A stretch of 64,000 bases of DNA from Naegleria gruberi (Eukaryota): assembly GCA_000004985.1 (NCBI GenBank), contig GG738847.1; one strand, 5' to 3'. The notes under the pieces were generated by a model. That model saw nothing but the letters and a program-made list of their open reading frames with translations, did no database searches and was not told the DNA's origin. This document shows, one piece after another, positions 19,273 to 42,600 of this stretch (positions are counted from its first letter, which is position 1; every line of letters starts with the position of its first letter). The position numbers and the translations under genes are program-made.

Positions 19273-19379
19273 TGTGAACATTAACTTGTGAATAAATGTA
19301 ATTAATCAATAATGGAACCTAGTGATCAATCCGATTTGACAAGTTTCAAATATTATTCGAAATTAAAATTTAAAAAAAA

Positions 19380-25973: not shown

Positions 25974-27333
25974 TTATTCTGATGTCATATTAATTGATGA
26001 CAAGATTGAACTATCCAAGCTCATTGATAGCTGCTGATCACTTCCTTCACCAGTTGGACTTGTTGGTGATTTCAACTTTTTAACATCCAACATTTCATTG
26101 GAAGAAGTTGGCGAGAGAACCAAATCTTGAGTTGAATTTCTCGATTTTCCATTTGAAGAAGATAATGAAACATTCGAAGCTTGTGGAATAATCTTTTGAT
26201 CAGAATCCATTCTAAACAACTTTTGTACCTCTCTCAATGGATTGTAAATTGAGAGAATCAATACTACAAACGCAATAATTCCAATATTGTAAAGCATGTG
26301 AAAGAAATTCATGAAATAATTCCAAGTTAAGGTGAGTGGAATGAAAACGAAACCAATAAATTGGAAAATCAATGAAATGGTCAATCCGTATTGAATAGCC
26401 ATTGATTTTCTCAAGGCAACTTTCTTGAATTTGTAAGTTTTGATTTTTTCAACACTTTTTCCCTTAATTTCGGATGGAGAAACTCCACGAAGCATATTCT
26501 TGATTTTTTCCTTGCTTTCTTTCAAACTCTTGATGAGTTTTCTGCCAATCACATTGAGGAAGATTGAAACGGAAACTGTTGAGATGAAAAATAAAAGAGC
26601 TGCGCTCAGGAAGAAACCCAATTGGAGATAGCTCAATAAATCTGGGTCAATATTGGCACGACCAGCTGCTAAACCTCCAAAAGCAATGGTAATGCAACAG
26701 AGGAGAACGAACAATCCACCCAAAATGATCAAGAAGGCAAATAATCCCTTTCTAACAATTTCGAATGCTCTTTCAGATAAAACACTGATAGAACGACAAG
26801 TTTCGGCACTATTTGCAAAGATTGTTAATAGGAATTATATCAAAAGAAACTTACAAAATGTAACAAATATGAGCCATCAACACTACTTCAACATAAATTG
26901 CAATATTCACAAAACATCTGTCAAAAATCTTGATAACAACACTTGCCACTTTTCCTTCATTTGGAACCATGTGTAATAGAGCCAGCTCACTTGAAATTCT
27001 AGTTAGCATATTGACAAACACCAAACTTTCCAGAACAAACAAAATAGCAAACAAAATGTGTTGATTTCTCTTCATGTTCTTTTGTTGCATCAAGTAACTG
27101 ACAACTGACGCAATAAATAAACCACCAAATATCAAAACGAAAGGAGAAGTCAAAGATATAACAACAGTGTTGTAATCACCATAAATCGCGCTTGTTGTTG
27201 TAGAACTATTGGTAGAATTGACCAATTCAACAGCTGACAGTTGTCCCATCAATGGCAGTGAAACATCTTGTTGATCGATAACTAATGGACCCAACAGAAA
27301 TTCTGATGGTAATTGGGAATGATATCTAGACAT
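25974..27333 (-). CDS. Two-exon gene for a seven-transmembrane protein (~425 aa) with receptor-like topology: glycosylated N-terminus, basic third intracellular loop, and a Ser-rich C-terminal tail.
   Basis: Exon 1 is 27333-26855 (MSRYHSQLPSEF...VVLMAHICYI-), with donor TT|GTAAGT. Exon 2 ends at 25974. It starts either at 26769 (85-nt intron, junction ..ICYI-L-AFEIVRKG..) or at 26808 (46-nt intron, ..ICYI-F-AETCRSISVLSERAFEIVRKG..). Both are in phase, and a 46-nt intron is validated elsewhere in this window. Seven hydrophobic helices, an N-glycosylation motif NSTNSS, and a basic loop KSLKESKEKIKNMLRG. The family is not identifiable. Confidence 0.65.
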
Positions 27334-28541
27334 TCTTTTTGATTTTGTTTCTTTCGTATTGCATCTCTCGCTATTCGATAGGTATTGGTGGATGTGATAA
27401 TAGTTTAGGATGGACCTGTCAGTTATAGATGATTTCAATAAATTGGGACATTTCATCAACCATCTTTCTGAACGCTTTGGAAAAACGACATGTTTTTGAT
27501 GGGACAAAATTGACAAGTTGACACATAGCAAGTATGATAACAAATTAGTGATTTGCCTAGTTGAGTTTTAGAGGATGTAGTGAGCTTTATTGGATTGTTG
27601 CATTTTGATTCTGGAATCCAGAAGAATCTTGTTTCGATTTTTCCTTAAGAAAAAAAGGTTTCGTCGCTTCATTTACAGGATGTGTATCCGAAAGGTTGAG
27701 TTGTAAAAGAACATGTTTTGTTGAAGGATGATTTCTCAAGTTTCATTCACTAGTCCAATATGAAATCTTTGAAACTGTCATCTGTAGGTCAGTTTCTTAA
27801 TGTTTATTCAAACCTTTCCAATGAAAAAAATGTAAAAATCAACAATTTAAACACATGTTATTTTTGATTAATAGTGACATTGCCTGTTATTGTGGAATTG
27901 GTAGAATAATCCAATAATTGAAGTGTTGATTTAGAAGTTGTAAACTAAAGTACAACAATTCACACCCATCACAAACTACTGCATTCTTCCATTACAATCA
28001 TTGATGAGTGGAAAGTTGTACATTTCTGAGTGTTTGATTTTTCAATAATTGTAAAACAATAATGTTATTGGATAACACAACAATTTCTCCTCTTGATTCA
28101 TTCTCATGCAGTATTGCACTAAGAGAGGTAAAACTTTTCAAACTTCACTTGTTTGTGTTGAATGAATTGTAGATATCGAACAATGAAATTAATTTTTTTA
28201 AAACTGTCTCTCTGTGTAATCCATTTCCAATACTGAAAACTAATTATTGAATTATCAATAATTCATCATCTCCAAAGAAAATGTGATTGACTTGAGTCAT
28301 TGTTATAACCAACAATTAAAAGAGACGTTTCAAACCATTGAAGTGAGGGTGTTAAATGTTGAATTTCAACGAAGAAAGGGGAGACACTTCACCAATCAAC
28401 AAAATTGCTGTAAAGTTGACAACAAGTGTCTACTGTCATCTTATCACAAACTAGAAAAAAAAAACTCAATACTTGATCAACGCAAATCTTCACACAGTTC
28501 ACATAAATTGATTGCAATATTTTGTAACCCATCATCACACA

Positions 28542-30359
28542 ATGAGTAACAATAATTCTGAAGATATTGCTGCTTCAAGTTTTGCCAATAGAAAGGCTCT
28601 ATTCCAAAACCTACAGAGCAATCCAAGTAATAGTAGCACAACTACCAAATCTACTACTACTCAATCTTCCACTTCCACTACTACCACTGGTAAATTACCT
28701 GCATTCAATCCGATCAATAAATCATCGACACCAAGCAACTCGTCATCTACTACCTCCAGCACAACTCCCGCCAATTCTAATACAGTAGTCACCAACAACA
28801 CAAGTGGCAGTGGAGGAGGTTCGAGCCAATTTAGGGAAGCTTTGAAAGGATTGAGTGGTGCAGCTGGAGGTAATCCACTGTTTGCTGGTGGTTTTGTGAA
28901 GAGTACAACAACAACTGCAACCACCAGTTTGCCAACTTATAAACCATCAACACCGAGAGGTAATAATAATAACAGTGGTGTTGTAAATTCGGTGAGTGAA
29001 AAGAAGGAACCACCTAAATTACCACCACGTAGAGGATCTGGTATTGGATCAAACAATACAAGCACTGCTACACTCACATCAGGTGGTAGTAATAATAATA
29101 ATAATAATTTGCAAACAGCAACAACAACAACAACTAGTCAACCTCCTCCTGCTTTGCCTCCTAGAAAACTTTCACAAAAGAAAGATGAACCACCACAAAT
29201 ACCAATTGTTACTAAGCAACAAGTTGTCGTAGAGGAAGAACCAATTGTTGAGGAGGAAATTCATCACGAAGAAGAAGAGGAAGACGAGGAAGAAGTTATT
29301 CAAGTACGTGATAGTATTCGACATGAAAGTGATGACGAGGATGAGTCAGACTCGGAGGAAAGTTCTACACCTTCTACACCAAGTGGAACATCATCTTCTA
29401 CTACATCAATTAACAATAACAATAATTCACTTCCACAAACATTGACCATTCAGAGTACTCCACCTCCTCTACCAAAGAAAACACCAAGTCAAGAAACACC
29501 AATTGTTGATAGTTATTCCATCACATTACATAATGCTACACAATCTTTGAACAACAACAAATCAAATCAGAATGATGACGAAGATCCAACAGCAAATCTA
29601 CCAAAGGGATGGACAGCCTACTTTGACCCTGGTCGTCAGGCCCACTATTACCACAATGAATTTACTGGAAAAACAACATGGAAGAAGCCTCCATCCGATG
29701 TTATTGTCTCCTCTTCATCATCTACTTCTGCAACAACAACAAAGGAAGAAGAACAATTAGAAGATGGATGGACAGCCTATTTCGACTCTGGTAGACAAGC
29801 CTACTACTATCATCACGAACAGACTGGTAAAACTACATGGAAGAAACCAATCAAGCAACAACAACAACCAAAGGTTTCTCCTCGCAAGCAAACTCCACCT
29901 CCAACTAGTACTACCACTTCTGCTGTACAACAACAACAAACTTCTCCACAGAAACAAACACCTCCAGTTGTCCCAACTAGAAAACTCTCACAAAAGAAGG
30001 ATGATGTTGCTCAGGAATCAACAACGCAACAACCTCCTTCTATTCCTCCTGTAAAACCAACTCGTCCTGCTACCAAGAGTATTATTGAGAATAATCCTCC
30101 TCCAGTTGTTGTTGTCGAGAGCAAACTTCCATCATTACCACCTGCAAAACCAATTAGAAAGGAAACAAATTCTCCAACAACAACTCAAGGAGATTCATCT
30201 GCTCCACCTCTTCCTCAGGAAAACCACTCAACAAGGCAACACCCCCACCACAAATTCCAACAGGAAAACCATCAAGAAATCCTTTGGAATCTTCTGCAAA
30301 GAATGATCATCGTCAATCGACAGTCATTAGGGAAGATGTCATGTTGCAACCACAATTAA
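28542..30359 (+). CDS. N-terminal segment (frame 0) of a probable single WW-domain-myosin gene: Ser/Thr/Asn-rich, two WW domains, and repeated Pro-rich motifs.
   Basis: ATG at 28542 (MSNNNSEDIAASSFANRKALF). WW domains are LPKGWTAYFDPGRQAHYYHNEFTGKTTWKKP and LEDGWTAYFDSGRQAYYYHHEQTGKTTWKKP. PPxxP motifs: PPPALPPRKLSQKK, TPPVVPTRKLSQKK, PPAKPIRKE. The ORF runs on in frame 0 to a TAA at 30359 and overlaps the downstream myosin ORF, which sits in the -1 frame. The frame switch is best explained by a 1-nt error at the C5 run at 30242-30246. Confidence 0.6.
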   Translation: MSNNNSEDIAASSFANRKALFQNLQSNPSNSSTTTKSTTTQSSTSTTTTGKLPAFNPINKSSTPSNSSSTTSSTTPANSNTVVTNNTSGSGGGSSQFREALKGLSGAAGGNPLFAGGFVKSTTTTATTSLPTYKPSTPRGNNNNSGVVNSVSEKKEPPKLPPRRGSGIGSNNTSTATLTSGGSNNNNNNLQTATTTTTSQPPPALPPRKLSQKKDEPPQIPIVTKQQVVVEEEPIVEEEIHHEEEEEDEEEVIQVRDSIRHESDDEDESDSEESSTPSTPSGTSSSTTSINNNNNSLPQTLTIQSTPPPLPKKTPSQETPIVDSYSITLHNATQSLNNNKSNQNDDEDPTANLPKGWTAYFDPGRQAHYYHNEFTGKTTWKKPPSDVIVSSSSSTSATTTKEEEQLEDGWTAYFDSGRQAYYYHHEQTGKTTWKKPIKQQQQPKVSPRKQTPPPTSTTTSAVQQQQTSPQKQTPPVVPTRKLSQKKDDVAQESTTQQPPSIPPVKPTRPATKSIIENNPPPVVVVESKLPSLPPAKPIRKETNSPTTTQGDSSAPPLPQENHSTRQHPHHKFQQENHQEILWNLLQRMIIVNRQSLGKMSCCNHN

Positions 30360-33300
30360 TGCCATCTCTTCCAGATGAAGTTGGATTTTCTAGAAAGTCC
30401 ATCTCACGTGATCGTTATCAACCAATCAACTCTGCATATCAACAAGATTTCCGTGTTCGTAGATTGGAAGATCGTGAAATGTGTGACGATTTAACATTGC
30501 TCCTTTCACAAAGTTCAATGAAATCAAAGAAATCCGAGCAAATGGTGGTTCCACAAAAGACTGAAATTACAGAAATTGATTTGACCAACATTTTGGCCAA
30601 TCGTTATTATCAAAATGAAATTTACACATGTGTTGGTCCTGCCATTCTCTCAATCAATCCATATAAGGCTGTAAAGGGTCTATACAGTAATGAAACAAAG
30701 GCTCTCTTCCACTCTCACATTCCATACGAGTTGGCTCCTCATATTTATTCACTTGCTGAGGATGCTTATCGTACATTGTTGGAACATGCCACTGCTAACA
30801 AGCCAACCTCCACTCATGTCACAAGAGCTAGACCTGCCATTACTGCTGTGTCATCTTCTTCTGCTCACTCTAAAAAGATGCCACCTCCTCCACCTCCTGG
30901 TAAACCAATCAATAAGGAAGCTGATTTGGATGATGATACATTCATTATTAATGATTTCAGTATTTCAGATGGTATTGGTGTTGGACAAGCAATTATTATT
31001 CAAGGTGAATCTGGTTCTGGTAAGACACTAGCCAGCAGAATTATCATGGAATACTTGGCTGCTGTTTCAATTTCTGGATTGGAAACTCAAAGAATCAAGG
31101 ATTCAATTCTTCAAAGTAATCCACTCTTGGAAAGTTTTGGTAATGCCAAGACTCTTCGTAACAACAACTCTTCTCGTTTCGGTAAATTTACCAACTTGTA
31201 TTTTAACTTTAAGGGCCAACTCATGGGAGGTGAGCTCACAACCATTCTCCTCGAAAAGGCCAGAGTTGTCAAGAGAAGACTTGGAGAACGTAATTTCCAT
31301 ATCTTTTACCAATTGTTATCTGATGATTATATTAGAAAACAACTCAATCTTGGTTTCCCAGAAGAGTACAATTACCTCAACAATAATGTTATCAATATTA
31401 ACGAAGTTGATGACAAGTCAGAATTTGAAACAACCAAACGTGCCATGGATTTATTGGACATGAGTGTTCCAGAACAAATGGCTGTTTTCAAGATTGTTGC
31501 TGCCATTTTGCAATTGGGTAATATTACCTTCACAGCCATTGAAGATCCTGAGGAGAGAAAGAGAAGAAACATCGCTCCTGGTGTTGAAGCTTGTGATGTT
31601 TCTAATGAAGCTTCATTGAAATTGGTTGCCAACACTCTCCAAATTGATGCTGAATTCTTGAGAAGATCAATGATTATCAGAGTTATCAAGACTGTTGGTT
31701 CTCCAATGCCAATTGAACAAACTCAATCAGTGGAACAAGCTGAATTCAACAGAGATACTCTCGCCAAGAATATCTATGAACGTTTGTTCTTGTGGTTGGT
31801 CAAGAGAGTCAACAGAGCATTGAGAGTTCCTGACTATGAAGATTTTGTTGCCAAGAAGAATTCTGAAACTTACTACAATATTGGTATCTTGGATATTTAT
31901 GGTTTTGAAATCTATGACAAGAATATTGGAACAGGAAAGATTGTTGATCAAGATGAAGCATCCAATCAAGGCAAACTCAAGAACGGCTTTGAACAATTGT
32001 GTATCAACTTTGTCAATGAAAAGATTCAAAGTGGTGTTCAAAGATCCATCAAGAAGGAACAAGAAGACATTCAAAAGGAAATTTATGGAGATGACTTTAA
32101 GCCAACTCTTGCCTCTACTCAAGAGAGAAACAAGAGATTCGACTCTGATGCTGCTATTCAAATGATTGCTGGCAAGCCAATCAGTGTCTTTTCATTGTTG
32201 GATGAAGAATCCATGTTCCCTAATGGTAATGATGTTAACTATGTTCAAAAGATGAAGACCAACATCAAACATCCATACTTTAAGATTCCAAGAATTGCAG
32301 AACCAACAGAATTTGAATTGGAACACTTTGCAGCTCTCGTCAAGTATAACACTGCAGATGGATGGGTTGACAAAAATCGTGACACTTTACTCGCTGAAAT
32401 GCTCTACACTATGCAAAATACAAAGGACCACTTGCTTATGGCTCTCTTCCCTAAGAATGAACAAGCTAATGATGTTCTCTCTAAAAAGCCAGCCAATGCA
32501 GGAACCAAACTTCAACAAACAACTGCTGAAAAGTTCTTGAGAGATGTCAGCAAGTTGATGAATCAATTGAGTTCATGCAGCTTGAAACATCACCACATTA
32601 GATGTATCATTCCAAACTATGAAGGAAGAGCTGATGATTTCCAAAAGGACGTTGTTAATCACCAAGTTAGATATTTGGGTATTTTAGACACTGTCCTCTC
32701 GAGAAAAGCCGATGATTTGGGATCCAATGTGACTGGTTACAGCATTAAGATTCCGTACGATACCTTCCTTGAAAGATACAAGCTTCTCTGTCCTGAAACA
32801 TTCCCATATTGGGAAACTTTCATTACCAACAAGTATGGTCCTGTTGAGGAATTCACTATTGAACACAAGAAGGAAGCAGTCCATCAAATTTTGAGCCAAG
32901 AACATATTGGTATGACCAATCCACAAGATTTCTTCTTGGGTAGAGGTAATGTCTTGTTGGCCTCTCCAGTTCAACTCTTCCAATTGGATGAAATGATCAG
33001 AGAACAAAAACATGAAATGGCTAGAAAGATTCAAAACTCCTTCAGAAGATACAGAAAGAAGAGAGCTGGAAAGATGGAAGAAATGATGAAGAAGGCTATC
33101 AAGACAACTGAACCAACCAAGCAAAAGGAAGCTCCTGAAGAAATCAGAATTAGACATGACGGTTTCAGAACATCCAACTTTGGTGAAACAAAGAAACGTG
33201 TCTTGATCACTGGTAGTGACAGAAGAAATATTTTCCTCTTGGATACTACAAGCTCATCTTCAGAGTTTGAACAATTGAGAAAGATTGCCATTAGAGATAT

Positions 33301-35959
33301 CAAGAAGATTTACATTTCACCATACTCTGATAATTACATGATTTTCAAGTTGGACATGGATGAAGGTGATGAATTGGTAGAACTAGATAACAAGTGGGAA
33401 TTTTTGGAAGAATTTAACAAGCTTATTGAATCAACTGCCTCTAACTTTAAGGGTGAACATGTTCCAAGAGTTGAAGTTACCAAGGACATTAGTATCCTCA
33501 ATCATCAAAAGGACAAGAACACTGGTACTCAAAATTTATTGGTCAGATTTATTCCATCTGCCTACAATACCAAGAAGACTGTTACCACTGAATGCTATGC
33601 TGATGAATTTGATAATAGACTCTTCATTGTCAACACCTTCACTCAAGCTGATATTTACAATCAAAGAAAGTTGAGAAGAAAGGCCTCACTCTATGCCAAG
33701 CAAGATCAAAACAGAGATTACTTGAGAATGCAAAACAGTGAATTGATGCAACTCTTAAAGAAGGATTATGATGACTCCAAAGTTCTATTCTCTGGTGTCG
33801 TTTCCAAGTATAACAAGAGATTCAAGAAGCAAGACAGAATTTTCATGGTCACCGATAAGGCCATTTATAATATTGATCCAAGTGGTGGTTACCTCATCAA
33901 TAGACGTGTTCCAATTGGCCAAGTAACCTCTGTCACTGTCTCACCTTACACTGATAACTTCTTTGTTGTTGATCATCCAGATCAAGATATTTTGAGTGAA
34001 AGTGCCAAGAAGACTGAAATTTTGGAATCCATTTTGGAAAGCTTCCAAAATGCTACCAATCAATTGTTACCGGTCAAGGTCACTACCAACTATTACATTA
34101 ACTTGGCCAAGAAGAATACCAAGCGTGTCGCTATTTCATGGATTATTGAACCAGAAAATCAAACACAATTCTCAGTTTCTACACTTGTTCCAAATACTGC
34201 TGGTGGAGCTGATGTTCATGTTGTTTCTGAAGTTGATAACGATAATGACAAGTCAATGAATGATTTGGCTGTTAGACAATCCTTCCAACGTAGATCAGTT
34301 CGTGGTAAGATGGTTAAGAATGGTGATATGGATGAGGTTGATTTGAATGACGTCTTTGGTGGTTTGAAGGTTCGTAGAAAGGACTCTCTCCTCGTCTGGT
34401 TCCAAGGTGATTATTTGAACTTTAAGGACAATCCAAAATTCATCGAAATGGTCAAGAAGCACGATCCAGAATGGAATGGACAAGTTCTCTTCTCTAACCT
34501 AATGACTAAAGTCAATAAGAGATTCAGAACTCAACCTAGAAAGGTTGTAGTTACACCAAATTACATTTACACTCTCGATGATGAAAAGTTACACTTTAAC
34601 AGAATTACTCCAATCAAGGATTTGAGTGGTATTTCTCTCAGTACTATGAGAGATGCCTTCTTTGTTGTCCACTGCCCAACTGATCACGATTTATTTGCAT
34701 CTTGTAAGAAGAAGACTGAATTAGTTTCTGTTATTTGTGATGCCTTCAAAGATAAGACTGGTATGGATCTCCCAGTTCACGTAGAAGATAAATTCGTCTA
34801 CAAACCAAGTACAGATGTTAAAGGTGTTAAAACAATTGAATTTAGACATGATCCAACCACCAAGGTTCCAATCCTTACTCCAACCAAGTTGGGTTGTCTC
34901 ATTCAAGTTAACAATTCTGATCCTGAAAAGGTTAAACAAAACTTACCAACTGCCAAACAACAAAAACCAGCTGCAACTCCACAACTCAAGTTATATGAAG
35001 GTTCTGATGAAAGAGGTATTCAAGATAAGATGGATTCCATCTATACAGGAAGAAAGGGACGTAATAGAAGATCTCTCCTTCGTGAATATCTTGGTGACTA
35101 TTTGAGATTGGAAGGTACACAAAGAATGAAGAAGGTTTTCGATAGAAATGGTGATACTGAATTAATCTTCTCTGGACAAGTTCTCAAATATAACAAGAAC
35201 TTTAAGAAGCAACATCGTTTATTGGTTGTAACAGACAAGAATGTTTACAATATTGATGAACAAGAATTCAAGATTAAGAGAAAGATTCCACTTGAAGAAA
35301 TTACAGGTGTCTCTGTTTCTCCATTCGACGACAATGTATTTGTTATGCACTGTCCAACTAGTGGTGACTATTTGTTGGAAGATGAAAAGAAGACTGAAAT
35401 TATTTCTGCTCTCCAAAATGCAAGACTCAGACACTTGAAACAACCATTGAAGATTAATGTTGATGACCAATTTAACTTTGCTCCAAACTCTTCATCTACC
35501 ATGCCAGTTACTTTCATTAGTGATGATCACTGCAAGGATACTTGGGCTGAGAATAGAGCTAATGCATTGGTTGTTCACGTAAAGAGACAAGAACCTGGTG
35601 TAGTATTGGAAGCTGCCTATCTCTATTTGAATGAAGAATCTAAACCAATTGAAGTTAAATCAACACCAATTCTTATCAAATTGAAGAAGAGATGGACCTA
35701 CAAGTTGCAAATTCGTTTCTATGTCAATGAATACTTGGCAGGATGTGAATTCCACGAAAAGATTGATACTGTGTCTTCGAGACTTGAATTTGTATCCAAA
35801 GTTGTTGAACTGGAACCAAAAGAAGAACGTTATGTTATTACCCTTCCTGAAAGAAAGGTAATTTATTCATTGCTTTCCAAAACCAGAGTCAAGTGCAAGC
35901 TAGTTGATCCAAGTGGTAAAGTTCTCATGGCTGTTCGTTTTGTTTATGATATTCAATAA
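30284..35959 (+). CDS. Unconventional myosin, class-I-like. The head has GESGSGKT P-loop, NNNSSRFGKF switch I and DIYGFE switch II. One IQ motif follows, then a tail of 3-4 tandem TH1-like (PH-like) modules. This is probably the C-terminal continuation of the upstream WW-domain ORF.
   Basis: Frame-2 ORF is open from about 30175 to the TAA at 35957-35959. The track start at 30284 is a TTG. The first in-frame ATG (30338) is still upstream of the earlier ORF's stop, so the two ORFs cannot be separate genes. The motor begins TEIDLTNILANRYYQNEIYTCVGPAILSINPYK. IQ motif: ARKIQNSFRRYRKKR. TH1-like repeats: VLFSGVVSKYNKRFKKQDRIFMVTDKAIYNID..VSPYTDNFFVV; VLFSNLMTKVNKRFRTQPRKVVVTPNYIYTLD..FFVVHCP; LIFSGQVLKYNKNFKKQHRLLVVTDKNVYNID..VSVSPFDDNVFVMHCP. 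Confidence 0.85.
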   Translation: MESSAKNDHRQSTVIREDVMLQPQLMPSLPDEVGFSRKSISRDRYQPINSAYQQDFRVRRLEDREMCDDLTLLLSQSSMKSKKSEQMVVPQKTEITEIDLTNILANRYYQNEIYTCVGPAILSINPYKAVKGLYSNETKALFHSHIPYELAPHIYSLAEDAYRTLLEHATANKPTSTHVTRARPAITAVSSSSAHSKKMPPPPPPGKPINKEADLDDDTFIINDFSISDGIGVGQAIIIQGESGSGKTLASRIIMEYLAAVSISGLETQRIKDSILQSNPLLESFGNAKTLRNNNSSRFGKFTNLYFNFKGQLMGGELTTILLEKARVVKRRLGERNFHIFYQLLSDDYIRKQLNLGFPEEYNYLNNNVININEVDDKSEFETTKRAMDLLDMSVPEQMAVFKIVAAILQLGNITFTAIEDPEERKRRNIAPGVEACDVSNEASLKLVANTLQIDAEFLRRSMIIRVIKTVGSPMPIEQTQSVEQAEFNRDTLAKNIYERLFLWLVKRVNRALRVPDYEDFVAKKNSETYYNIGILDIYGFEIYDKNIGTGKIVDQDEASNQGKLKNGFEQLCINFVNEKIQSGVQRSIKKEQEDIQKEIYGDDFKPTLASTQERNKRFDSDAAIQMIAGKPISVFSLLDEESMFPNGNDVNYVQKMKTNIKHPYFKIPRIAEPTEFELEHFAALVKYNTADGWVDKNRDTLLAEMLYTMQNTKDHLLMALFPKNEQANDVLSKKPANAGTKLQQTTAEKFLRDVSKLMNQLSSCSLKHHHIRCIIPNYEGRADDFQKDVVNHQVRYLGILDTVLSRKADDLGSNVTGYSIKIPYDTFLERYKLLCPETFPYWETFITNKYGPVEEFTIEHKKEAVHQILSQEHIGMTNPQDFFLGRGNVLLASPVQLFQLDEMIREQKHEMARKIQNSFRRYRKKRAGKMEEMMKKAIKTTEPTKQKEAPEEIRIRHDGFRTSNFGETKKRVLITGSDRRNIFLLDTTSSSSEFEQLRKIAIRDIKKIYISPYSDNYMIFKLDMDEGDELVELDNKWEFLEEFNKLIESTASNFKGEHVPRVEVTKDISILNHQKDKNTGTQNLLVRFIPSAYNTKKTVTTECYADEFDNRLFIVNTFTQADIYNQRKLRRKASLYAKQDQNRDYLRMQNSELMQLLKKDYDDSKVLFSGVVSKYNKRFKKQDRIFMVTDKAIYNIDPSGGYLINRRVPIGQVTSVTVSPYTDNFFVVDHPDQDILSESAKKTEILESILESFQNATNQLLPVKVTTNYYINLAKKNTKRVAISWIIEPENQTQFSVSTLVPNTAGGADVHVVSEVDNDNDKSMNDLAVRQSFQRRSVRGKMVKNGDMDEVDLNDVFGGLKVRRKDSLLVWFQGDYLNFKDNPKFIEMVKKHDPEWNGQVLFSNLMTKVNKRFRTQPRKVVVTPNYIYTLDDEKLHFNRITPIKDLSGISLSTMRDAFFVVHCPTDHDLFASCKKKTELVSVICDAFKDKTGMDLPVHVEDKFVYKPSTDVKGVKTIEFRHDPTTKVPILTPTKLGCLIQVNNSDPEKVKQNLPTAKQQKPAATPQLKLYEGSDERGIQDKMDSIYTGRKGRNRRSLLREYLGDYLRLEGTQRMKKVFDRNGDTELIFSGQVLKYNKNFKKQHRLLVVTDKNVYNIDEQEFKIKRKIPLEEITGVSVSPFDDNVFVMHCPTSGDYLLEDEKKTEIISALQNARLRHLKQPLKINVDDQFNFAPNSSSTMPVTFISDDHCKDTWAENRANALVVHVKRQEPGVVLEAAYLYLNEESKPIEVKSTPILIKLKKRWTYKLQIRFYVNEYLAGCEFHEKIDTVSSRLEFVSKVVELEPKEERYVITLPERKVIYSLLSKTRVKCKLVDPSGKVLMAVRFVYDIQ

Positions 35960-36433
35960 ATTAATTGTTATTTTAACAACTACCAACAAACAGTAAGGCA
36001 AACAAGGTCAATTTCCAATCATACACGTCAATGCACTGGTTTTGTAATATGCGTTCTCATATTTCTATGTGAAAGATTCGAGTACATGGTACAGATCTCC
36101 GCTATTGGAGTTGGTTGTGAAGGTCCTTATAATTCCAAAAACATGAATTAATAGGTGATGTAAAATTGGGTCAGGCAAAACCCTAAGGGAGTAAGAATTT
36201 CTAATTATCGTCGAGCCGGCAAAAAAATTTACAAGTCGAGCCACAGAAGATCAGTACTTGGTCTCGACTCTAAAACAATTTGGTTGGAACAACGAATACA
36301 TGGCATGATACTCCAAATGAATTCGTAACTGCTTGTTGTCCAGAGATTTATATATTGTATTTTAATTTCCTTAATAATTTATTATTTTTAAAATTTTAAA
36401 GATGTATTTTGAACAAAAAATTACATTTTTATT

Positions 36434-37744
36434 TTAAAAAGACAAGTCAATCTTTTTCGAGTAAAATTGTTTGTACCACCTTCTCAACTTCATCACTGGC
36501 CCATCACCCTTCACCAAACTCGGTGTTCTCTTATAAATCTTATTCTCCCAAACTGTGATATCATTCTGCCACTGAGCTACCCAATTTCCCACAACATACC
36601 AAACTAATAGTCGAGGAATTTTCTTCTCTGCATACGCAACAAAGCCAACATCCAGATTTGTTTTGCTCTTTGGAGAATGTGTATGGAATAGATAGATTCT
36701 GCCAAAACTTCCATCAAATCTGAAAAGTGCAATTCCTGCAGGACCAAATAATTCAATTCGAGCATTTACGGTCGTGGAGGTGAGTTTCTTACCGAAAATT
36801 TCGAGACATGCCTTGTTAGTAAAGTAGGCAATATGAGGATCTGAATCTGAGAGTTTAAATTCTGCTTGATGTATAATTTGGACGAAAGGAACCTGAATTG
36901 AACGACCAAATATTGATCTAGGTCCACTCCATGGCAAAACCATTTGGCCATGCAAGGGTTGGAAATGTTGAAAATCTGCCGAGTTCTCAGCAAAATCTTG
37001 AATATTCATTCTAATATCTTCATATGAATAATTCCCAAAATGGTAAAATTTGTCCATGTCCAAATCTTGTGGATTCAACAATGGATACTGAGGTGGTAAA
37101 CCTTCCTTCTCTGAATGGAACCACACCAAAATCATACCATACTTCTCTTCACAATACCACGATCGAGTGTGAGCATTCTTTGGAATTGTTTCATTACAAT
37201 TTTCTGAATGTTGACATGAGCTCTTGTCACAATTATTTGGAATTTTGACACATTGACCATCTCTATCAAATTCCCATAAATGAAATGGACATTGAATGTT
37301 ATTTCCAATAACCTTACCTTCCACTCCTAAATTACTTCCCAAATGTGGACAATAAGCATCTAAAACTCCGACAGAACCATCAAATCCTCGAAACACAACC
37401 ATGTCCTCGCCAAAGTAGTGGACAAGTTTGGAGCTACCTTTTGATAACTCATTTGAGAAACAAATTCTGAACCAACCGTTTGGAAACTGATCAATAAACG
37501 TACTTTCTCTAAATTTAGATGATGCATTTCTATTCGATTCTGCTGAATGTTTTTGATCTTTCGTTTTGAAATCATACCACTTGTTGGCTATCAGGACTGC
37601 CAATAGTACAAGATTGAGAAGTAAACTAACTGCAATAAGCGTTTCAGTTTCAAAACTAAACATTTTTTTTAACTTTCTCAAATTGACTAGACGAAACTGA
37701 TTGTACTCACGTGTTATTGAAGTGAAAATAGAGAAAGGATGCAT
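36434..37744 (-). CDS. Rieske [2Fe-2S] non-heme iron oxygenase with an N-terminal membrane anchor. Neverland/DAF-36-like (cholesterol 7-desaturase family) candidate.
   Basis: Rieske ligands CPHLGSNLGVEGKV...NIQCPFHLWEFDRDGQC (CxH...CxxH). The motif GWFRICFSNELSKG..LVHYFGEDMVVFRGFDGSVGVLDAYCPH is characteristic of the Neverland family. N-terminal TM TLIAVSLLLNLVLLAVLIANKWY. The likely true start is the second ATG at 37663 (AAAAAAAATG context); the ORF is otherwise open from 37744. Confidence 0.75.
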   Translation of the reverse strand: MHPFSIFTSITREYNQFRLVNLRKLKKMFSFETETLIAVSLLLNLVLLAVLIANKWYDFKTKDQKHSAESNRNASSKFRESTFIDQFPNGWFRICFSNELSKGSSKLVHYFGEDMVVFRGFDGSVGVLDAYCPHLGSNLGVEGKVIGNNIQCPFHLWEFDRDGQCVKIPNNCDKSSCQHSENCNETIPKNAHTRSWYCEEKYGMILVWFHSEKEGLPPQYPLLNPQDLDMDKFYHFGNYSYEDIRMNIQDFAENSADFQHFQPLHGQMVLPWSGPRSIFGRSIQVPFVQIIHQAEFKLSDSDPHIAYFTNKACLEIFGKKLTSTTVNARIELFGPAGIALFRFDGSFGRIYLFHTHSPKSKTNLDVGFVAYAEKKIPRLLVWYVVGNWVAQWQNDITVWENKIYKRTPSLVKGDGPVMKLRRWYKQFYSKKIDLSF

Positions 37745-38227
37745 TTAAATCATCTCTTTAGTCAATCGGAAGTGAGGAGGAAATCCTCAAACCCTATACA
37801 CCCTCATTTGTCCATTCTCTAAAATTAAACCGCCAACAAGATCCTCGCTCAAATAAATTGGCCAATCAGCACAATCATTAGGAAGTCCGAATAATTTTGG
37901 AGGTAAAACTAACAATTAAAAACCTTATGCAAGCGAATCTCTGATACAAAATGTCCTTAATGAACCACATGCGTGTATTATATAAGGCACCAGCACAATT
38001 TCGCTACAAAAATTGCCACACCCTTAAATGAAACTGTCTTTATAAAAGTATAGTGCACTGCCTTATTACTGTATAACTTCCTAAATCGTTCCTTGAATGA
38101 TCCAGGAACAAATTGGAATGCGTGCCACTTTTTCTGAATTGTTCCAATGTTGTAGTTGTTTTAAAAAACATTAAAAAAACAGTGCAACGCCCAAACACCT
38201 CCAAATCTCCATCACAAAGACAATTGT

Positions 38228-39154
38228 TTGTTCTGTGTGTGTGAATCTCTTTTCTCAAAACCTCTATTCTCTGTTTTTTATACAAGAACAAGAATAAATA
38301 CTCTTTATCAAATGCTTAATGATACTGTAAGAATGGAAAATCAAGATTGTGATGTGAGTGGTGCTGCTTGTACTGTTGATTGTCCTGCTAACAACTCTAC
38401 TTCAGCTCGATCTAGAATTCGTGCCACCTCTCTTCCCCTTATTTCCTCTGTTAATTCCTTAGATGTGTCCATGACGTCTCCTCTCCTTCATGATGAAGAG
38501 TCCGAGAGTGTGATATCATCAATTCCCTCCCCAAAGTCATCATCATCATCATCATCATCTCCCTCCAACTTTATTATAGCCGAGAATCCATCCCAATCAC
38601 CATTCAATTCAACAACTCATGCAATTCCGCCATCATCCCCTAATCAAAGATTGAGACTTTTATGTGAAAAGTATAATTCCTCTGCCCATCAAAACAATAG
38701 ATCCAATTCTTGTATACCCAACCAACCATGCTCTCTGAAAACCTTACTAATGGATGACTTGCAATCTAGTCGATCCAATAGCTCTATTTCAGGAAACACT
38801 TTCCATGCAAAACATTGTCCATTTCACAGACATTCAACCAGTGACTTGTTTTGTGTTTCTAGAACTAAGATGAGCGATGCATATTTCCACTCTAACATTG
38901 GAAAGCCCTCTTCCTCATCCTCTCCAATGGATGACATGGAAAATAGTGGTGGATGCACTGAAAGTGAAATGGCACACATGTTCTTTTACTTTGTCTTGGG
39001 AATTGTCATGGTTATTGTACAATTCGCCAAAAAGTGTTTCAAAGATGATGTCAGGTCTCAAACAATTTCACAAACCTCTTCCTCCTCCTATAAAACTCCA
39101 ATCATTGTTGGTGAGCCATCCTCAGCAACAACAACCTCATCATCAATACGATGA
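38228..39154 (+). CDS. Ser-rich protein with a C-terminal hydrophobic segment (FFYFVLGIVMVIVQFAKKCF). Function unknown.
   Basis: ORF of 308 codons. The likely ATG is at 38312 (MLNDTVRMENQDCD). Runs of poly-Ser (SSSSSSSSPS). No recognisable domain. Expression and start are uncertain. Confidence 0.45.
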   Translation: MFCVCESLFSKPLFSVFYTRTRINTLYQMLNDTVRMENQDCDVSGAACTVDCPANNSTSARSRIRATSLPLISSVNSLDVSMTSPLLHDEESESVISSIPSPKSSSSSSSSPSNFIIAENPSQSPFNSTTHAIPPSSPNQRLRLLCEKYNSSAHQNNRSNSCIPNQPCSLKTLLMDDLQSSRSNSSISGNTFHAKHCPFHRHSTSDLFCVSRTKMSDAYFHSNIGKPSSSSSPMDDMENSGGCTESEMAHMFFYFVLGIVMVIVQFAKKCFKDDVRSQTISQTSSSSYKTPIIVGEPSSATTTSSSIR

Positions 39155-39612
39155 TAAATCAAAATCCAAAAACAACAAATAAATTATTTTTCTCCGTAAG
39201 ATATAATTAAGGTGTTTGGTTAGTTCGTTCCATAATAATTCGATAGTCGCAGGAGATAATAAATAAGGTACCTTGGTGAATTATCTCTTCTCAACAATGA
39301 ATAAGAAGTGAAAAGTGTTAAATATATTGATTCTTGGTTCCTTAAATCCAAACTTGGTATTGTAAATTTACAAAATACGATACGAATAAACGTGGCAGGT
39401 AGAGTGGAATATTTATTTCAGGAAAAGGCAACCAATCACAATCCTCCAACCTTTTTTAGTTCGAGAAAAATCCTTTTTGCAGCCAACTAAAAAAATTCTG
39501 TTGGCGAGAATTGCAATTAACAGAAACAACAAAAAAAACTTGTTCACAAGGTGCTCGGCTACACTTCAACAATTTTCATCATCTTTTGAAGTGGATACCT
39601 AAAATACAATAC

Positions 39613-42600
39613 ATGACAGCAGCTGTCAATAATCGAAAGAAAATGAAGTGTTCAAATAAGAGACGACAACAGTTGACCACCACCATCATGATGTTCATGG
39701 TGATGGTGATTGGAATTATTTTACTCACCAAAAATGTTCAAAGTTTATTACCACGATATAAAATTGAAGTGCTATCCGGAAATCCATACATGTCCACAGC
39801 ACTCTATGATGGAATTATGGCCACAGATGCAATTCTCAACCTTCCAAGAAACGTACTCCTCTACAATGATGAATTGTACATATCCGATACCTTTAATCAC
39901 ATGATTAGAAAGGTTTCGAAAAATGGAACACTCACCACATTGGTAGGAGTTGGTGCTGCTGGTTCAAATGATGATGATGGTTTGCTTGGAATTGATACTC
40001 AACTAAACAATCCGAATGGTTTATCCATTTCTCCAAATGGTGAATTATTGTTTATTGCTGATACTGATAACAAATTGATTCGAGTTTTGAATATGAAAAC
40101 AATGATTTGTAATGTATTTAAAATGTTTACATCGAGTGGGGTGTTAGATACCTTGACGAAACCAGTTGGTGTTTCCATTACAAGTAATTGGAATATTTAC
40201 ATAACCGATGACAAGTATGTGAAAAAGGTTAATTATTATACAAGAGTAGTTACAATTATTGCAGGAGGTATGTTATATTGTTATTGTTTTTAATACGAAA
40301 CTATTGAAATTTGTTTTTTTTTGTTCTGATTGACTAAAAAGGTGGAAGTGGTAGTTATAAAGATAATGTCGTTCCAACAACCATTTCAATCACAAGTCCT
40401 AAACTCATTCATACCATTCCTTACACTCCTGATTCTACTCTTGTAGTTTTTACTGATGCCACAACTGCTAAATTTATTATAGATACAGAAAGTTTACAAT
40501 CAACCACAAAAACAGGACTTGTAGGAGGGTAAGTTTTAATCATCAATTTATTGAGTACTAGAGTAATATATTTTGAAAAATAGTTCAAATATTCCAGCAA
40601 TTTTTCCATTTTCCACCACAACATTTTACTATTCTTTGGGAAATGGGATTTTTAACTTGGAAAGTGGAATTAATACTCCTAAATCTGCAACTACTGGTGG
40701 TGATGCTGGAAAGTATAGTGTAACTAATATGGCGTATTCTTATTTTAACACTTCTTATGGATTACATGGAAATAGTTCAGTGATTTATATTGCAGATTCG
40801 GCTAATTATTGTATTAGAAAGTATGATATTGCGAATAATTCTGTATCAACTGTTGCAGGTTTCAAATATCAACCTTCTTTTGAAGGAGTTTATGCTTTAT
40901 CTGTTTATGCAGATTTGAAAATTCAAAAGTTAACCGTGACCTACAAGGATGAAATTATTTATCTTGACACTAACAACAGAGTTAGAATGATTACAGCCAA
41001 TGGAAGAATCAAAACACTCATTGGATCTGAGTATACATCCAAATATCCAGTTTGTGTTTCAACATCTATTGCTTTGGAATGTAGGGCAACTAACGCGATT
41101 GATATTATGAGCGTTGGAGATTCTCTAATTCTCTCAACTTTAAAATTATTCAGTTATGATTTGGCAAGCATTTCAGGAACATCTACCATTACCCAACAAG
41201 GTACTGAACTAGTAGGTACTTTCTCTCTAAGAGCAATGAATGGCTCATCAGGTGCTGTCGTATATTTCCTAAATAATGCCAATCAATTGTTAAAAAAATC
41301 TTTAACTGGTTTGGAAACAGTTGTGAAAGGATCATTATCTGCATCAGATTTCAATATTGTAAATATTGATACTGATTTCGCTAGAATTTGCTATATTGAG
41401 AGTGGAATTATCACTTGCTTTAATGAGACTGATTTAAGTTCAATTGTTCTCCCAATGCCATCTGGAGAAACCAAGTTCACAAGCGTTGCACTCACTAGTA
41501 CTACTGTCTATGCATCAACAAGTAATAGAATCTATGCCTATTCAGTTTCTGATTATTCAACTGCTTACCTAATTGCAGGTTCAAAGCCAGTTAATGTGAA
41601 TGGACAAACTTTTGATTATAGTGGGTACAACAGTGATTACATTTTGGCAACTAGTGCTATTTTGAGTGATATCAGTAATTTGCAAGTCTCTTCTTCTAAT
41701 GGAAATATCTATTTTGTGAGTGGTGGTACTTTGATTAGAAGAATTGCCAATGGATTTGTTTCTACAGTTGCTGGTATTTCACCTCTCCATACAGAAGGTA
41801 TAACACCAATGGCAATTGCAAGAGATTCAGCTAAAAAGATCACCTATTTCATTGACAGTAATACACATGTTAAAATGATGGATGAAGCCAGTGGAATTAT
41901 TAGTCCACTTACTTTACCAATTAAACCAAGTCCTGATCCACAAAATATTACATTACCATTAACATTTTTAAGAGCTCCACCAAAGAATGCAGGTCAATTA
42001 TTGACTTATTCCTCCTATGATGGTTTATTATATCTTGCAGATTATTGCAGAATTATTTCCATCAATGTTACATCTGCTTCATACAAGCTTGTAACTGGTA
42101 CTGTGTGTGGAGATAGTGCTGACAATATTTTAGCAATCAATTCATTCATTCAAACACCAAGTTCCATGACAGTCGACTCTAAAACTGGAGATTTATACTT
42201 TACGTTTGGAACAAAGATTTTGAAAATTGAAAAGAAAACTGGTTTATTAACGACATTATATGGCAGTACTGGTAAAATTGGAACTGTTGTGAATGGAATA
42301 ATTTCCAAAACTTCTCTCCTCACCAACATTACAAGTTTGGTCGTGTCTGATGATATTATTTACTTTGCAGATATTACTCGTAGCGTTAGACAAATAGCTC
42401 TATCAAACAGTAATTTGACAACTTTGGTTACCATGGCTGCGGTCACTGAAAAGATGCTTTCAATTTCACTCGATAAGAATGGTGACATTTTCATTCTCGA
42501 TACCTATACTTACTTAATTAGCAAGTACATTAAAAGTTCAGGTGGGGTCCCCAAAGAGGTAGCAGGAAAACAATTTGGTAAAGGATTCAATGGAAGATAC

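What the first reader, a model, noticed from the sequence alone, without database searches (positions are those of the whole stretch)
28542..35959. WW-domain ORF and myosin ORF overlap in -1 frame at a C5 homopolymer: probably one ~2470-aa WW-Pro-rich-myosin gene
The WW/Pro-rich ORF (frame 0) runs to a TAA at 30359. The myosin ORF (frame 2) is already open from ~30175, and its first ATG (30338) lies inside the upstream ORF. There is no intergenic space and no plausible intron, because the region is not AT-rich and has no GTAAGT. Adding one C to the C5 run at 30242-30246 joins ..ENHSTRQHP to PPPQIPTGKPSRNP.., which continues the upstream PPxxPxxKP motif series and runs straight into the motor domain. 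The result is either an assembly homopolymer error or a real pseudogenising frameshift. If fused, the product is a myosin with an N-terminal extension carrying two WW domains plus polyproline motifs, an uncommon architecture.
Basis: seen in the sequence. Interest (0 to 1): 0.7.

Follow-up and report, generated by a model that had tools for sequence, protein, structure and literature searches.

The report
Frameshift-split WW-myosin gene in Naegleria gruberi
Two overlapping reading frames in this Naegleria gruberi window are one 2,472-residue unconventional myosin gene, broken by a one-base frame error that probably comes from the reference sequence, so the finding mainly corrects an annotation.

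Summary
The window is Naegleria gruberi NEG-M: the annotated 'myosin' XP_002682373 matches it at 100% identity. A 605-codon ORF with two WW domains (28542-30359, frame 0) overlaps by 202 nt a 1,9xx-codon myosin ORF (frame 2, open from 30158, ending 35959). A C5 run sits at 30242-30246.

The one-gene reading is strongly supported. The N. fowleri ortholog is a single uninterrupted 7,629-nt ORF (2,542 aa) with WW x2, motor and four TH1 domains in three assemblies. Protein-level conservation continues upstream of the first frame-2 ATG. The gene has no canonical intron donor, and the overlap has no slippery site.

The break is probably not at the C5 run. Codon usage, DNA and protein alignment to N. 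fowleri, and the PxxPx[K/R] motif series all place the missing base at about 30204-30226 (CTTCCTCAGGAAAA), giving APPLPxGKPLNK.

Whether the break is a consensus error in the Sanger draft (my estimate 0.65) or a real recent or allelic lesion (0.25) cannot be settled without reads.

The architecture already exists, unnamed, in N. fowleri database entries. Side finding: the conserved C-terminal ~120 residues fold like RhoGDI.

The parts
28542..30217 (+). 5' part of the gene, read in frame 0. It encodes the N-terminal extension: an S/T/N-rich region, an acidic patch, two WW domains and PxxPx[K/R] motifs. The start codon is ATG 28542.
   Evidence: ORF. The N-terminus MSNNNSEDIAASSFANRKALFQNLQS aligns with the N. 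fowleri start MSDKDNNSQQDVSSTSFANRKALFQQLQS. pN 0.20 against pS 0.63 over 28575-28619.
29598..29690 (+). WW domain 1
   Evidence: Pfam PF00397, residues 353-383 of the 605-aa ORF. 27/36 residues identical to N. fowleri, with pS 0.71 and pN 0.17.
29760..29849 (+). WW domain 2
   Evidence: Second WW stretch in Pfam. 28/33 residues identical to N. fowleri, with pS 0.74 and pN 0.10.
29964..30268 (+). Series of PxxPx(0-2)[K/R] (SH3-ligand-like) motifs that runs across the frame break. PVVPTRK, PSIPPVK and PSLPPAK are in frame 0. PPLP at 30204-30215 follows. PQIPTGK is in frame 2.
   Evidence: Regex scan. N. fowleri has the matching units PPSVPSNKP / PPPLPSVGAKP / PPPSVPSNKP.
30204..30226 (+). Most likely interval of the 1-nt deficit (frame 0 to frame 2): CCACCTCTTCCTCAGGAAAACCA. 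Candidate sites are C 30216, GG 30218-30219 and the A4 run 30220-30223. The repaired product is APPLPxGKPLNKATPPPQIPTGKP.
   Evidence: The codon-usage log-likelihood is highest here. The N. fowleri protein alignment score plateau starts at 30212. In the DNA alignment, CCACCT (frame 0) and AAACCA (frame 2) are both in register with N. fowleri codons, with a net gap of 10 nt between them. The motif series agrees.
30242..30246 (+). It lies inside the permitted interval but is not the best-supported site.
   Evidence: Sequence. Codon-usage profile is -2.7 to -6.3 ln units relative to the maximum. Alignment score is 281 against 287.
30158..30359 (+). The 202-nt overlap in which both frames are open. 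The frame-0 TAA is at 30357-30359. After the break, frame 0 encodes an unconserved tail (…ENHSTRQHPHHKFQQENHQEILWNLLQRMIIVNRQSLGKMSCCNHN).
   Evidence: Translations. No XXXYYYZ slippery heptamer. 58% A+T.
30218..30478 (+). Frame-2 coding sequence upstream of the annotated N. gruberi myosin start (ATG 30479). It contains the first frame-2 ATG at 30341-30343 and conserved residues on both sides of that ATG (STVIREDVMLQPQLMPS, YQQDFRVRRLED).
   Evidence: P0007 (XP_002682373) begins MCDDL at 30479. Conservation with N. fowleri and Willaertia magna. Over 30317-30379, 15/21 residues are identical, with pS 0.73 and pN 0.17.
30578..32995 (+). Myosin motor domain. P-loop GESGSGKT is at 31004-31027, switch I NNNSSRFGK at 31160-31186 and switch II LDIYGFE at 31889-31909. 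A loop-1 insertion at 30788-30937 contains PPPPPPGKP.
   Evidence: Pfam Myosin_head, E 1.5e-164. Motif coordinates.
33020..33064 (+). Neck: one IQ-like motif (ARKIQNSFRRYRKKR).
   Evidence: Read from the sequence. It matches the IQxxxRxxxxR consensus from my own knowledge; it was not scored with a profile.
33185..35527 (+). Four tandem TH1 (PH-like, lipid-binding) tail domains: about 33185-33487 (partial match), 33674-34138, 34373-34861 and 35060-35527.
   Evidence: Pfam Myosin_TH1 on separate segments: E 3e-10, 8e-30, 3e-35 and 2e-39.
35600..35956 (+). C-terminal RhoGDI-like beta-sandwich domain. The stop codon is at 35957-35959.
   Evidence: AF2 model with pLDDT 84. Foldseek against PDB finds RhoGDI with E 1e-9 and TM 0.69-0.78. 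The Pfam Rho_GDI hit is weak: 17.4 bits against a cut-off of 26.5. The domain is 62-89% identical across 10 heterolobosean homologs.

Best explanation
Positions 28542-35959 are one intron-less gene of Naegleria gruberi NEG-M. It encodes a 2,472-residue class-I-like unconventional myosin. The domain order is: a low-complexity N-terminus, two WW domains, a run of PxxPx[K/R] proline motifs, the motor, one IQ-like motif, four TH1 lipid-binding domains, and a RhoGDI-like C-terminal domain.

In the reference sequence the reading frame is broken by a net deficit of one nucleotide. The deficit most probably lies within 30204-30226 (CTTCCTCAGGAAAA) and not at the C5 run. The most likely cause is a base-call or consensus error in the draft assembly. 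As a result, the public gene model (XP_002682373, 1,826 aa, starting at 30479) is truncated by 646 residues.

Shown here: the two parts are colinear with one ORF in the sister species, both parts are under purifying selection, and there is no intron or slippery site.

Inferred: the exact site of the missing base, that the break is an artefact, and how the protein works. I infer that the TH1 domains tether the motor to membranes, that the WW domains and proline motifs recruit proline-ligand and SH3 partners, and that the RhoGDI-like domain binds a lipidated cargo.
For: Species and current model:
- P0007 'myosin [Naegleria gruberi]' is 100% identical to the window.

One gene:
- N. fowleri FDP41_008028 is 2,542 aa and 71-76% identical. 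It is a single 7,629-nt ORF in GCA_008403515.1 and in an independent Logan assembly. A third assembly gives a 2,543-aa product in the same 90%-identity cluster (CAG4718897.1). Pfam finds WW x2, a head domain and four TH1 domains.
- tblastn places N. fowleri residues 6-653 on frame 0 and residues 628-2541 on frame 2.
- The W. magna ortholog is also one exon, with a long proline-rich N-terminal extension.

Coding on both sides of the break:
- pN is 0.10-0.20 against saturated pS of 0.57-0.74. This includes 30317-30379, which straddles the first frame-2 ATG.

Not an intron:
- No + strand GTAWGT occurs in 26438-40215.
- The overlap is 58% A+T against 78% for a verified intron.
- Of the five other overlapping or abutting same-strand ORF pairs, four show GTAAGT...AG introns.

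Not ribosomal frameshifting:
- No XXXYYYZ heptamer.

Site of the break:
- Codon-usage maximum at 30204-30225.
- Alignment-score plateau at 30212-30246, with the best value at 30212-30219.
- DNA alignment register.
- Motif series.
Against: - No reads, transcripts or second N. gruberi assembly could be reached. Exact look-ups of the window's ORF products found nothing. A metagenome scan for the junction also found nothing. So 'artefact' rests on priors, not on data.
- The preferred site has no long homopolymer (only GG and A4), which gives no obvious mechanism for a miscall.
- The region is low-complexity, so the alignments that locate the break are soft. The protein alignment score separates the two sites by only 6 BLOSUM62 units.
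- All functional statements about the protein are inferred from domain content alone.
Confidence: 0.65

Rival explanations
1. The frameshift is real in NEG-M. It would be a recent 1-nt deletion, fixed or present on one haplotype of this long-cultured axenic laboratory clone. It interrupts an ancestrally single gene. The locus would then produce a 605-aa WW/proline-rich protein with a 46-residue out-of-frame tail. It might also produce an N-terminally truncated myosin initiated at ATG 30341 or 30479. This would be an incipient pseudogene or a gene fission.
For: - The sequence as given contains the break.
- The reference is a Sanger assembly, whose consensus indel error rate is low. This is my own knowledge and was not tested here.
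- The break is the only frame break without an intron found in 64 kb, so the assembly is not riddled with indels.
- Both ORFs remain otherwise intact.
Against: - Both halves are under strong purifying selection relative to N. fowleri, including the segment between the break and the first downstream ATG. Any real lesion must therefore be very recent.
- N. fowleri (three assemblies) and W. magna have intact single ORFs.
- No secondary disabling mutation occurs anywhere in 7.4 kb.
Confidence: 0.25
2. The two frames are joined by splicing of a short non-canonical intron. An example is GTATTA at 30079 to the good acceptor TCTTCCTCAG at 30218 (140 nt).
For: 72 GT...AG pairs of the right length class exist mechanically. 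The acceptor-like CTCTTCCTCAG|G ends at 30218, exactly where the frame change is inferred.
Against: - The candidate intron is 59% A+T, like exons. A verified intron is 78% A+T.
- It lacks the GTAAGT/GTATGT donor used by the introns seen in this window.
- It is open in frame 0 and encodes LPSLPPAKPIRKE and SPTTTQGDSSAPPLP. These continue the motif series and align to N. fowleri TTTSDSVSRSVPPPLP.
- The N. fowleri and W. magna orthologs are intron-less.
Confidence: 0.04
3. The break is decoded on purpose, by programmed -1 ribosomal frameshifting or by transcriptional slippage. This would yield a short WW protein and a full-length myosin in a fixed ratio.
For: The geometry fits a -1 overlap of 202 nt. 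A4 and C5 runs lie in the overlap.
Against: - No X XXY YYZ heptamer occurs in any frame in the overlap.
- The ortholog in N. fowleri needs no recoding.
- The frame-0 tail after the break matches nothing in the N. fowleri protein.
- Cellular -1 frameshifting is rare in eukaryotes (my own knowledge).
Confidence: 0.02
4. These are two independent genes that happen to overlap: a WW adaptor gene and a myosin gene that starts at ATG 30341 or 30479.
For: The public annotation treats the myosin as starting at 30479.
Against: - Protein-level conservation with N. fowleri and W. magna extends upstream of both ATGs (STVIRED at 30317-30337).
- The proline motif series continues across the junction.
- No ortholog examined has a separate WW gene. 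In N. fowleri the WW part is fused. In W. magna the next upstream gene is on the other strand, 630 nt away.
Confidence: 0.03

Closest known systems
Naegleria fowleri FDP41_008028 (XP_044568826.1 / KAF0984113.1; also CAG4718897.1), annotated only as 'hypothetical protein'
   Same: This is the ortholog. It is 71% identical over 86% of the repaired protein and 76% identical over the myosin part. It has the same order of domains: WW x2, proline motifs, head, four TH1 domains and the conserved C-terminal domain. The upstream neighbour genes are conserved.
   Different: It has one uninterrupted 7,629-nt ORF. Its S/T-rich linkers are longer. At the position of the break it reads PPPLPSVGAKPSIGANRSPPPSVPSNKP.
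Heterolobosean class-I-like myosins with four TH1 domains (e.g. N. lovaniensis C9374_007282, W. magna ABK040_005772 and ABK040_010980, Acrasis kona 'myosin')
   Same: They share the motor, four tandem TH1 domains and the same highly conserved C-terminal ~120-residue domain. Kollmar and Muehlhausen 2017 count six heterolobosean class-1 myosins (PMC5583752).
   Different: The paralogs (36-40% identical) have no N-terminal extension and no WW domain. The W. magna ortholog (56% identical) has a proline-rich extension without WW domains.
Class IV myosins (Acanthamoeba HMWMI type)
   Same: WW domain(s) are attached to a myosin and can be N-terminal to the head (PMC3942036).
   Different: Class IV is defined by a MyTH4 (with or without SH3) tail. 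This protein has TH1 domains and no MyTH4.
Kinetoplastid Myo1 (e.g. T. cruzi TCDM_07314)
   Same: It is a class I myosin from the Discoba that combines TH1 and WW domains (PMC5778035, Table 1).
   Different: It has a single TH1. The WW domain lies C-terminal to TH1 and is followed by a FYVE-like domain. It is about 1,165 aa with no N-terminal extension.
RhoGDI / PDE6-delta / UNC119 lipid-binding beta-sandwich proteins
   Same: The C-terminal domain has the same fold: Foldseek E 1e-9, TM 0.69-0.78, 125-144 aligned columns.
   Different: Sequence identity is only 17-20%, and the Pfam Rho_GDI score is below the gathering cut-off. The N-terminal GTPase-binding arm of RhoGDI is absent. Here the fold is a tail domain of a motor protein.

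Membership tests
Myosin superfamily | Motor domain with P-loop, switch I and switch II | tested here: met
   Pfam Myosin_head E 1.5e-164. GESGSGKT, NNNSSRFGK and LDIYGFE are all present.
Class I myosins | TH1 (PH-like) membrane-binding tail directly after a short neck | tested here: met
   Four Myosin_TH1 matches, E 3e-10 to 2e-39. The usual number is one, so the copy number is atypical.
Class I myosins | Motor domain groups with class I in a phylogeny | tested here: inconclusive
   All best hits outside Heterolobosea are myosin-I proteins (Ie, Ib, IB, ID) at 30-36% identity. No tree was built.
Class IV myosins | MyTH4 domain in the tail | tested here: not met
   No PF00784 hit at E <= 1 on any tail segment.
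WW domain | A ~31-residue module matching PF00397 above the gathering score | tested here: met
   68-71 bits against a cut-off of 26.9, in two stretches.
Spliceosomal intron (as seen in this genome) | GTAAGT/GTATGT donor, A+T-rich body, pyrimidine-rich AG acceptor | tested here: not met
   No + strand GTAWGT in 26438-40215. The overlap is 58% A+T against 78% for a verified intron. The candidate intron encodes conserved motifs.
Programmed -1 ribosomal frameshift site | X XXY YYZ slippery heptamer in the zero frame (plus a downstream structure) | tested here: not met
   No XXXYYYZ in 30150-30356 in any frame. Downstream structure was not examined because there is no slippery site.
Assembly or consensus error | Raw reads or independent assemblies disagree with the reference at the site | not testable with these tools
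   No reads were available. Exact-product look-ups and a junction scan found no second N. gruberi sequence.
RhoGDI-like fold (C-terminal domain) | Immunoglobulin-like beta sandwich superposable on RhoGDI | tested here: met
   AF2 pLDDT 84. Foldseek E 1e-9, TM up to 0.78.
Pfam Rho_GDI family (PF02115) | Score above the gathering threshold | tested here: not met
   17.4 bits against 26.5. The domain has the fold, but sequence membership in the family is not shown.

The most novel reading that the evidence does not exclude
The frameshift is genuine in NEG-M. The locus is then a gene fission caught in the act. A free WW/PxxP adaptor protein would be expressed alongside a motor that has lost its N-terminal targeting module. 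This would be a natural experiment on what the WW extension does for a four-TH1 myosin. A more exotic version, in which the break is bypassed by recoding, is not strictly excluded, but I put it at about 2%.
Probability: 0.25. Interest if true: 0.45.

Novelty: new member of a known kind. Interest (0 to 1): 0.3.

Why it matters
The main consequence is practical. The reference N. gruberi myosin model (XP_002682373 / D2V147) is used in pan-eukaryotic myosin inventories. It lacks 646 N-terminal residues, including two WW domains and about nine SH3-ligand-like proline motifs. Domain-architecture surveys based on that model will therefore miss a WW-plus-class-I combination in Heterolobosea.

The repaired protein is an unusual motor: WW x2, proline motifs, head, four TH1 domains and a RhoGDI-like domain. 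It could link membranes, SH3/WW partners and possibly lipidated GTPases in an organism whose crawling depends entirely on actin.

The frameshift itself is ordinary. It is a single-base problem of the kind routinely fixed by read mapping.

Tried and rejected
Searches that found nothing:
- The search for homologous proteins with the full repaired protein returned only six hits and missed the 100%-identical N. gruberi entry. I think low-complexity words swamped the candidate list.
- The same tool with a 405-aa junction-centred query returned nothing at all.
- The search of protein representatives with the 605-aa WW ORF returned only generic multi-WW proteins. It says nothing about fusion.
- Exact-product look-ups found nothing for ORF1, three start variants of ORF2, the annotated P0007 and a neighbouring gene. 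One of these used 30338, which is a Val codon and not the ATG. The TTG-start look-up may also have failed only because TTG translates as Leu rather than Met.
- The 605-aa ORF is not in the protein collection as an exact sequence. I therefore could not establish whether JGI annotated a separate WW gene.
- A metagenome scan for the junction, allowing a variable gap, gave 0 hits.

Explanations considered and rejected:
- An intron ending at the good acceptor TCTTCCTCAG (30218).
- -1 programmed frameshifting.
- Two independent genes.

The reasons are given under the rival explanations.

Literature:
- The myosin surveys I read (PMC3942036, PMC5583752, PMC2375034, PMC5778035) do not mention this gene's WW extension, its four TH1 domains or a RhoGDI-like tail.
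Full report
**Identity of the window.** The myosin ORF is 100% identical to 'myosin [Naegleria gruberi]' (EFC49629.1 / XP_002682373.1 / D2V147, 1,826 aa). The window is therefore from the N. gruberi NEG-M reference genome. That public model starts at ATG 30479 (MCDDL...).

**Check of the observation.**
- ORF1 runs in frame 0 from ATG 28542 (an upstream TTG lies at 28512) to TAA at 30357-30359. It carries two WW domains (Pfam 68 bits).
- The myosin ORF is in frame 2. It is open from 30158 and ends at 35959.
- The two ORFs overlap by 202 nt. The C5 run is at 30242-30246.
- Two small corrections apply. The first frame-2 ATG is 30341, not 30338. Adding a C gives HPPPQIP, not HPPPPQIP.
- A one-base insertion anywhere in the overlap yields a single 2,472-codon ORF.

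**One gene or two.**
- The closest homolog is N. fowleri FDP41_008028 (2,542 aa). Pfam finds two WW domains, a myosin head and four TH1 stretches in it.
- Its gene is one uninterrupted 7,629-nt ORF in GCA_008403515.1 and in an independent Logan assembly of SRR29240419. A third N. fowleri assembly gives a 2,543-aa product in the same cluster.
- tblastn of this protein against the window puts residues 6-653 on frame 0 and residues 628-2541 on frame 2.
- The N-termini match: MSNNNSEDIAASSFANRKALFQNLQS against MSDKDNNSQQDVSSTSFANRKALFQQLQS. ATG 28542 is therefore the conserved start.
- The Willaertia magna ortholog (2,121 aa) is also a single exon with a proline-rich N-terminal extension. It has no WW domains, and the next upstream gene is on the opposite strand only 630 nt away.
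- Conservation continues upstream of both candidate myosin start codons. STVIREDVMLQPQLMPS (30317 onward) matches ATVIRTDTILQPQLMPS in N. fowleri and STVIHENTVIKPMIVP in W. magna.
- In ungapped blocks on both sides of the break, synonymous differences are saturated (pS 0.57-0.74) while non-synonymous differences stay at 0.10-0.20.
- An old fission would have left 30218-30340 untranslated and free to decay. It has not decayed.

**Not an intron, and not recoding.**
- The window contains clear introns. One runs from 16562 to 16693 (GTATGT...TTTACAG, 78% A+T).
- Five other same-strand ORF pairs in the window overlap or abut. Four of them show a GTAAGT...AG, A+T-rich intron at the junction. I saw none in the stretch read for the fifth pair (7372-12242).
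- The gene studied here has no + strand GTAAGT or GTATGT anywhere in 26438-40215. The overlap is 58% A+T, like the surrounding exon sequence.
- One mechanically possible intron deserves mention because its acceptor is good: 30079 GTATTA ... TCTTCCTCAG 30218. It would remove LPSLPPAKPIRKE and SPTTTQGDSSAPPLP, which continue the motif series and align with N. fowleri. I reject it.
- There is no XXXYYYZ slippery heptamer in the overlap, and the ortholog needs no recoding.

**Where the frame breaks.** Four analyses point about 20-35 nt upstream of it.
1. I computed a codon-usage likelihood for 'frame 0 up to x, frame 2 after x', trained on the rest of the gene. It peaks at 30204-30225 and is 2.7-6.3 ln units lower at 30243-30246.
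2. Global alignment of every possible repaired product to the N. fowleri segment gives a score plateau from 30212 to 30246. The best score (287) is at 30212-30219, and the score at the C5 run is 281.
3. In a DNA alignment, N. gruberi CCACCT (frame 0, Pro-Pro) and AAACCA (frame 2, Lys-Pro) are both in register with N. fowleri codons CCA CCT ... AAA CCA. The net gap between them is 10 nt, which is 3n+1. The missing base therefore lies in CTTCCTCAGG (30210-30219).
4. Every other proline unit has a K/R within two residues after PxxP: PKLPPR, PALPPR, PPLPKK, PVVPTR, PSIPPVK, PSLPPAK and PQIPTGK. N. fowleri has PPPLPSVGAKP at the homologous place.
   - A break right after PPLP gives PPLPxGKPLNK.
   - The C5 repair gives PPLPQENHSTRQH.

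Candidate lesions are a missing C near 30216, GG to GGG at 30218-30219, or A4 to A5 at 30220-30223. The region is low-complexity, so each line of evidence is soft. Together I put about 85-90% on 30204-30226.

**Artefact or real.** This cannot be decided here. No reads, transcripts or second N. gruberi assembly were reachable.
- In favour of an artefact: both halves are otherwise intact, and there are no other disabling changes in 7.4 kb. Strong constraint is seen on both sides. The break lies in a C-rich low-complexity stretch.
- In favour of a real lesion: the reference is a Sanger assembly (my own knowledge), this is the only intron-less frame break found in 64 kb, and NEG-M is a long-cultured laboratory clone.
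- My estimates are 0.65 for an artefact and 0.25 for a real recent or allelic frameshift. The remainder is spread over intron, recoding and two separate genes.

**What the gene encodes.** The following is domain evidence. The mechanism is inferred.
- About 340 residues of S/T/N-rich and acidic sequence.
- WW1 (29598-29690) and WW2 (about 29760-29849).
- A proline-motif linker across the break.
- A motor with intact P-loop, switch I and switch II, and a loop-1 insertion that itself contains PPPPPPGKP (30872-30916).
- One IQ-like motif.
- Four TH1 domains.
- A C-terminal domain of about 120 residues.

The C-terminal domain is 62-89% identical in all ten heterolobosean four-TH1 myosins aligned. 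It models confidently (pLDDT 84). It superposes on RhoGDI (Foldseek E 1e-9, TM 0.69-0.78), with PDE6-delta and UNC119 as more distant matches. Pfam's Rho_GDI model scores below its cut-off.

The likely working model is a membrane-tethered motor. The four PH-like TH1 domains would bind membranes. The N-terminal WW and PxxP module would recruit proline-ligand and SH3-domain partners. The tail end might hold a lipidated cargo. None of this was tested.

**Comparison with known systems.**
- WW domains N-terminal to a myosin head are described for class IV myosins, which have MyTH4 tails (PMC3942036). This protein has no MyTH4.
- Kinetoplastid Myo1 combines TH1 and WW, but the WW domain is C-terminal and is followed by a FYVE-like domain (PMC5778035).
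- Six heterolobosean class-1 myosins are counted by Kollmar and Muehlhausen (PMC5583752). None of the surveys I read mentions the WW extension, the four TH1 domains or the RhoGDI-like end.
- Among the 120 best myosin hits, only the N. fowleri ortholog has WW plus head plus TH1.
- The architecture is therefore uncommon. It is already present, unnamed, in public N. fowleri entries.

**Verdict.** The C5 site is probably wrong by 20-35 nt. The cause of the break is most likely a reference error, but this is unproven. The finding is a useful annotation correction and a modestly interesting myosin variant. It is not a new kind of system.

Noticed in passing
window 35600-35956: The last ~120 residues of the myosin fold as a RhoGDI/PDE6-delta/UNC119-type lipid-binding beta sandwich: AF2 pLDDT 84, Foldseek to RhoGDI E 1e-9, TM 0.69-0.78. 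The domain is 62-89% identical in all ten heterolobosean four-TH1 myosins aligned. Pfam Rho_GDI scores only 17.4 bits. I found no mention of such a myosin tail domain in the surveys I read.
   Followed up: partly
window 33185-35527: The tail has four tandem TH1 domains instead of the usual one. The same count is found in N. fowleri, N. lovaniensis, W. magna, Acrasis kona and unnamed metagenome or transcriptome homologs.
   Followed up: partly
window 30788-30937: An insertion of about 50 residues in the motor, at the loop-1 position just before the P-loop, contains KKMPPPPPPGKPINK. This is another PxxPxK-type motif like those in the N-terminal extension. N. fowleri has KKRPPPPPTEE at the same place.
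   Followed up: no
window 30479: The public N. gruberi model XP_002682373 starts at the second frame-2 ATG (MCDDL). This is downstream of coding sequence conserved with N. fowleri and W. magna. The model would be N-terminally truncated even if the frameshift were real.
   Followed up: yes
L003 8001-14366 (Willaertia magna JBEGDK010000055.1): The W. magna ortholog is a single exon with a ~430-residue S/T/P-rich N-terminal extension but no WW domains. The WW pair is therefore either a Naegleria gain or a Willaertia loss.
   Followed up: partly
window 16562-16693, 43703-43797, 50583-50632, and minus-strand junctions near 24475 and 26850: These are canonical short introns (GTAAGT or GTATGT donor, A+T-rich, ...CAG/TAG acceptor). 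They explain four of the other five same-strand ORF pairs that overlap or abut in different frames. No intron was seen in the stretch read for the fifth pair (7372-12242). They served as the local standard for what an intron looks like in this genome.
   Followed up: partly
window 15992-20484 and 26190-27183 versus L002: Synteny with N. fowleri is only partial. The genes upstream of the N. fowleri myosin match the window just upstream (26190-27183). The N. fowleri downstream genes (C2-domain and Ephrin_rec_like proteins) match window 15992-20484, on the other side, which indicates a rearrangement.
   Followed up: no
window 28929-28940 (repaired protein residues 130-133): The only [PL]PxY motif in the repaired protein is LPTY, in the N-terminal extension. 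It is a possible intramolecular ligand for the protein's own WW domains. This is pure speculation.
   Followed up: no
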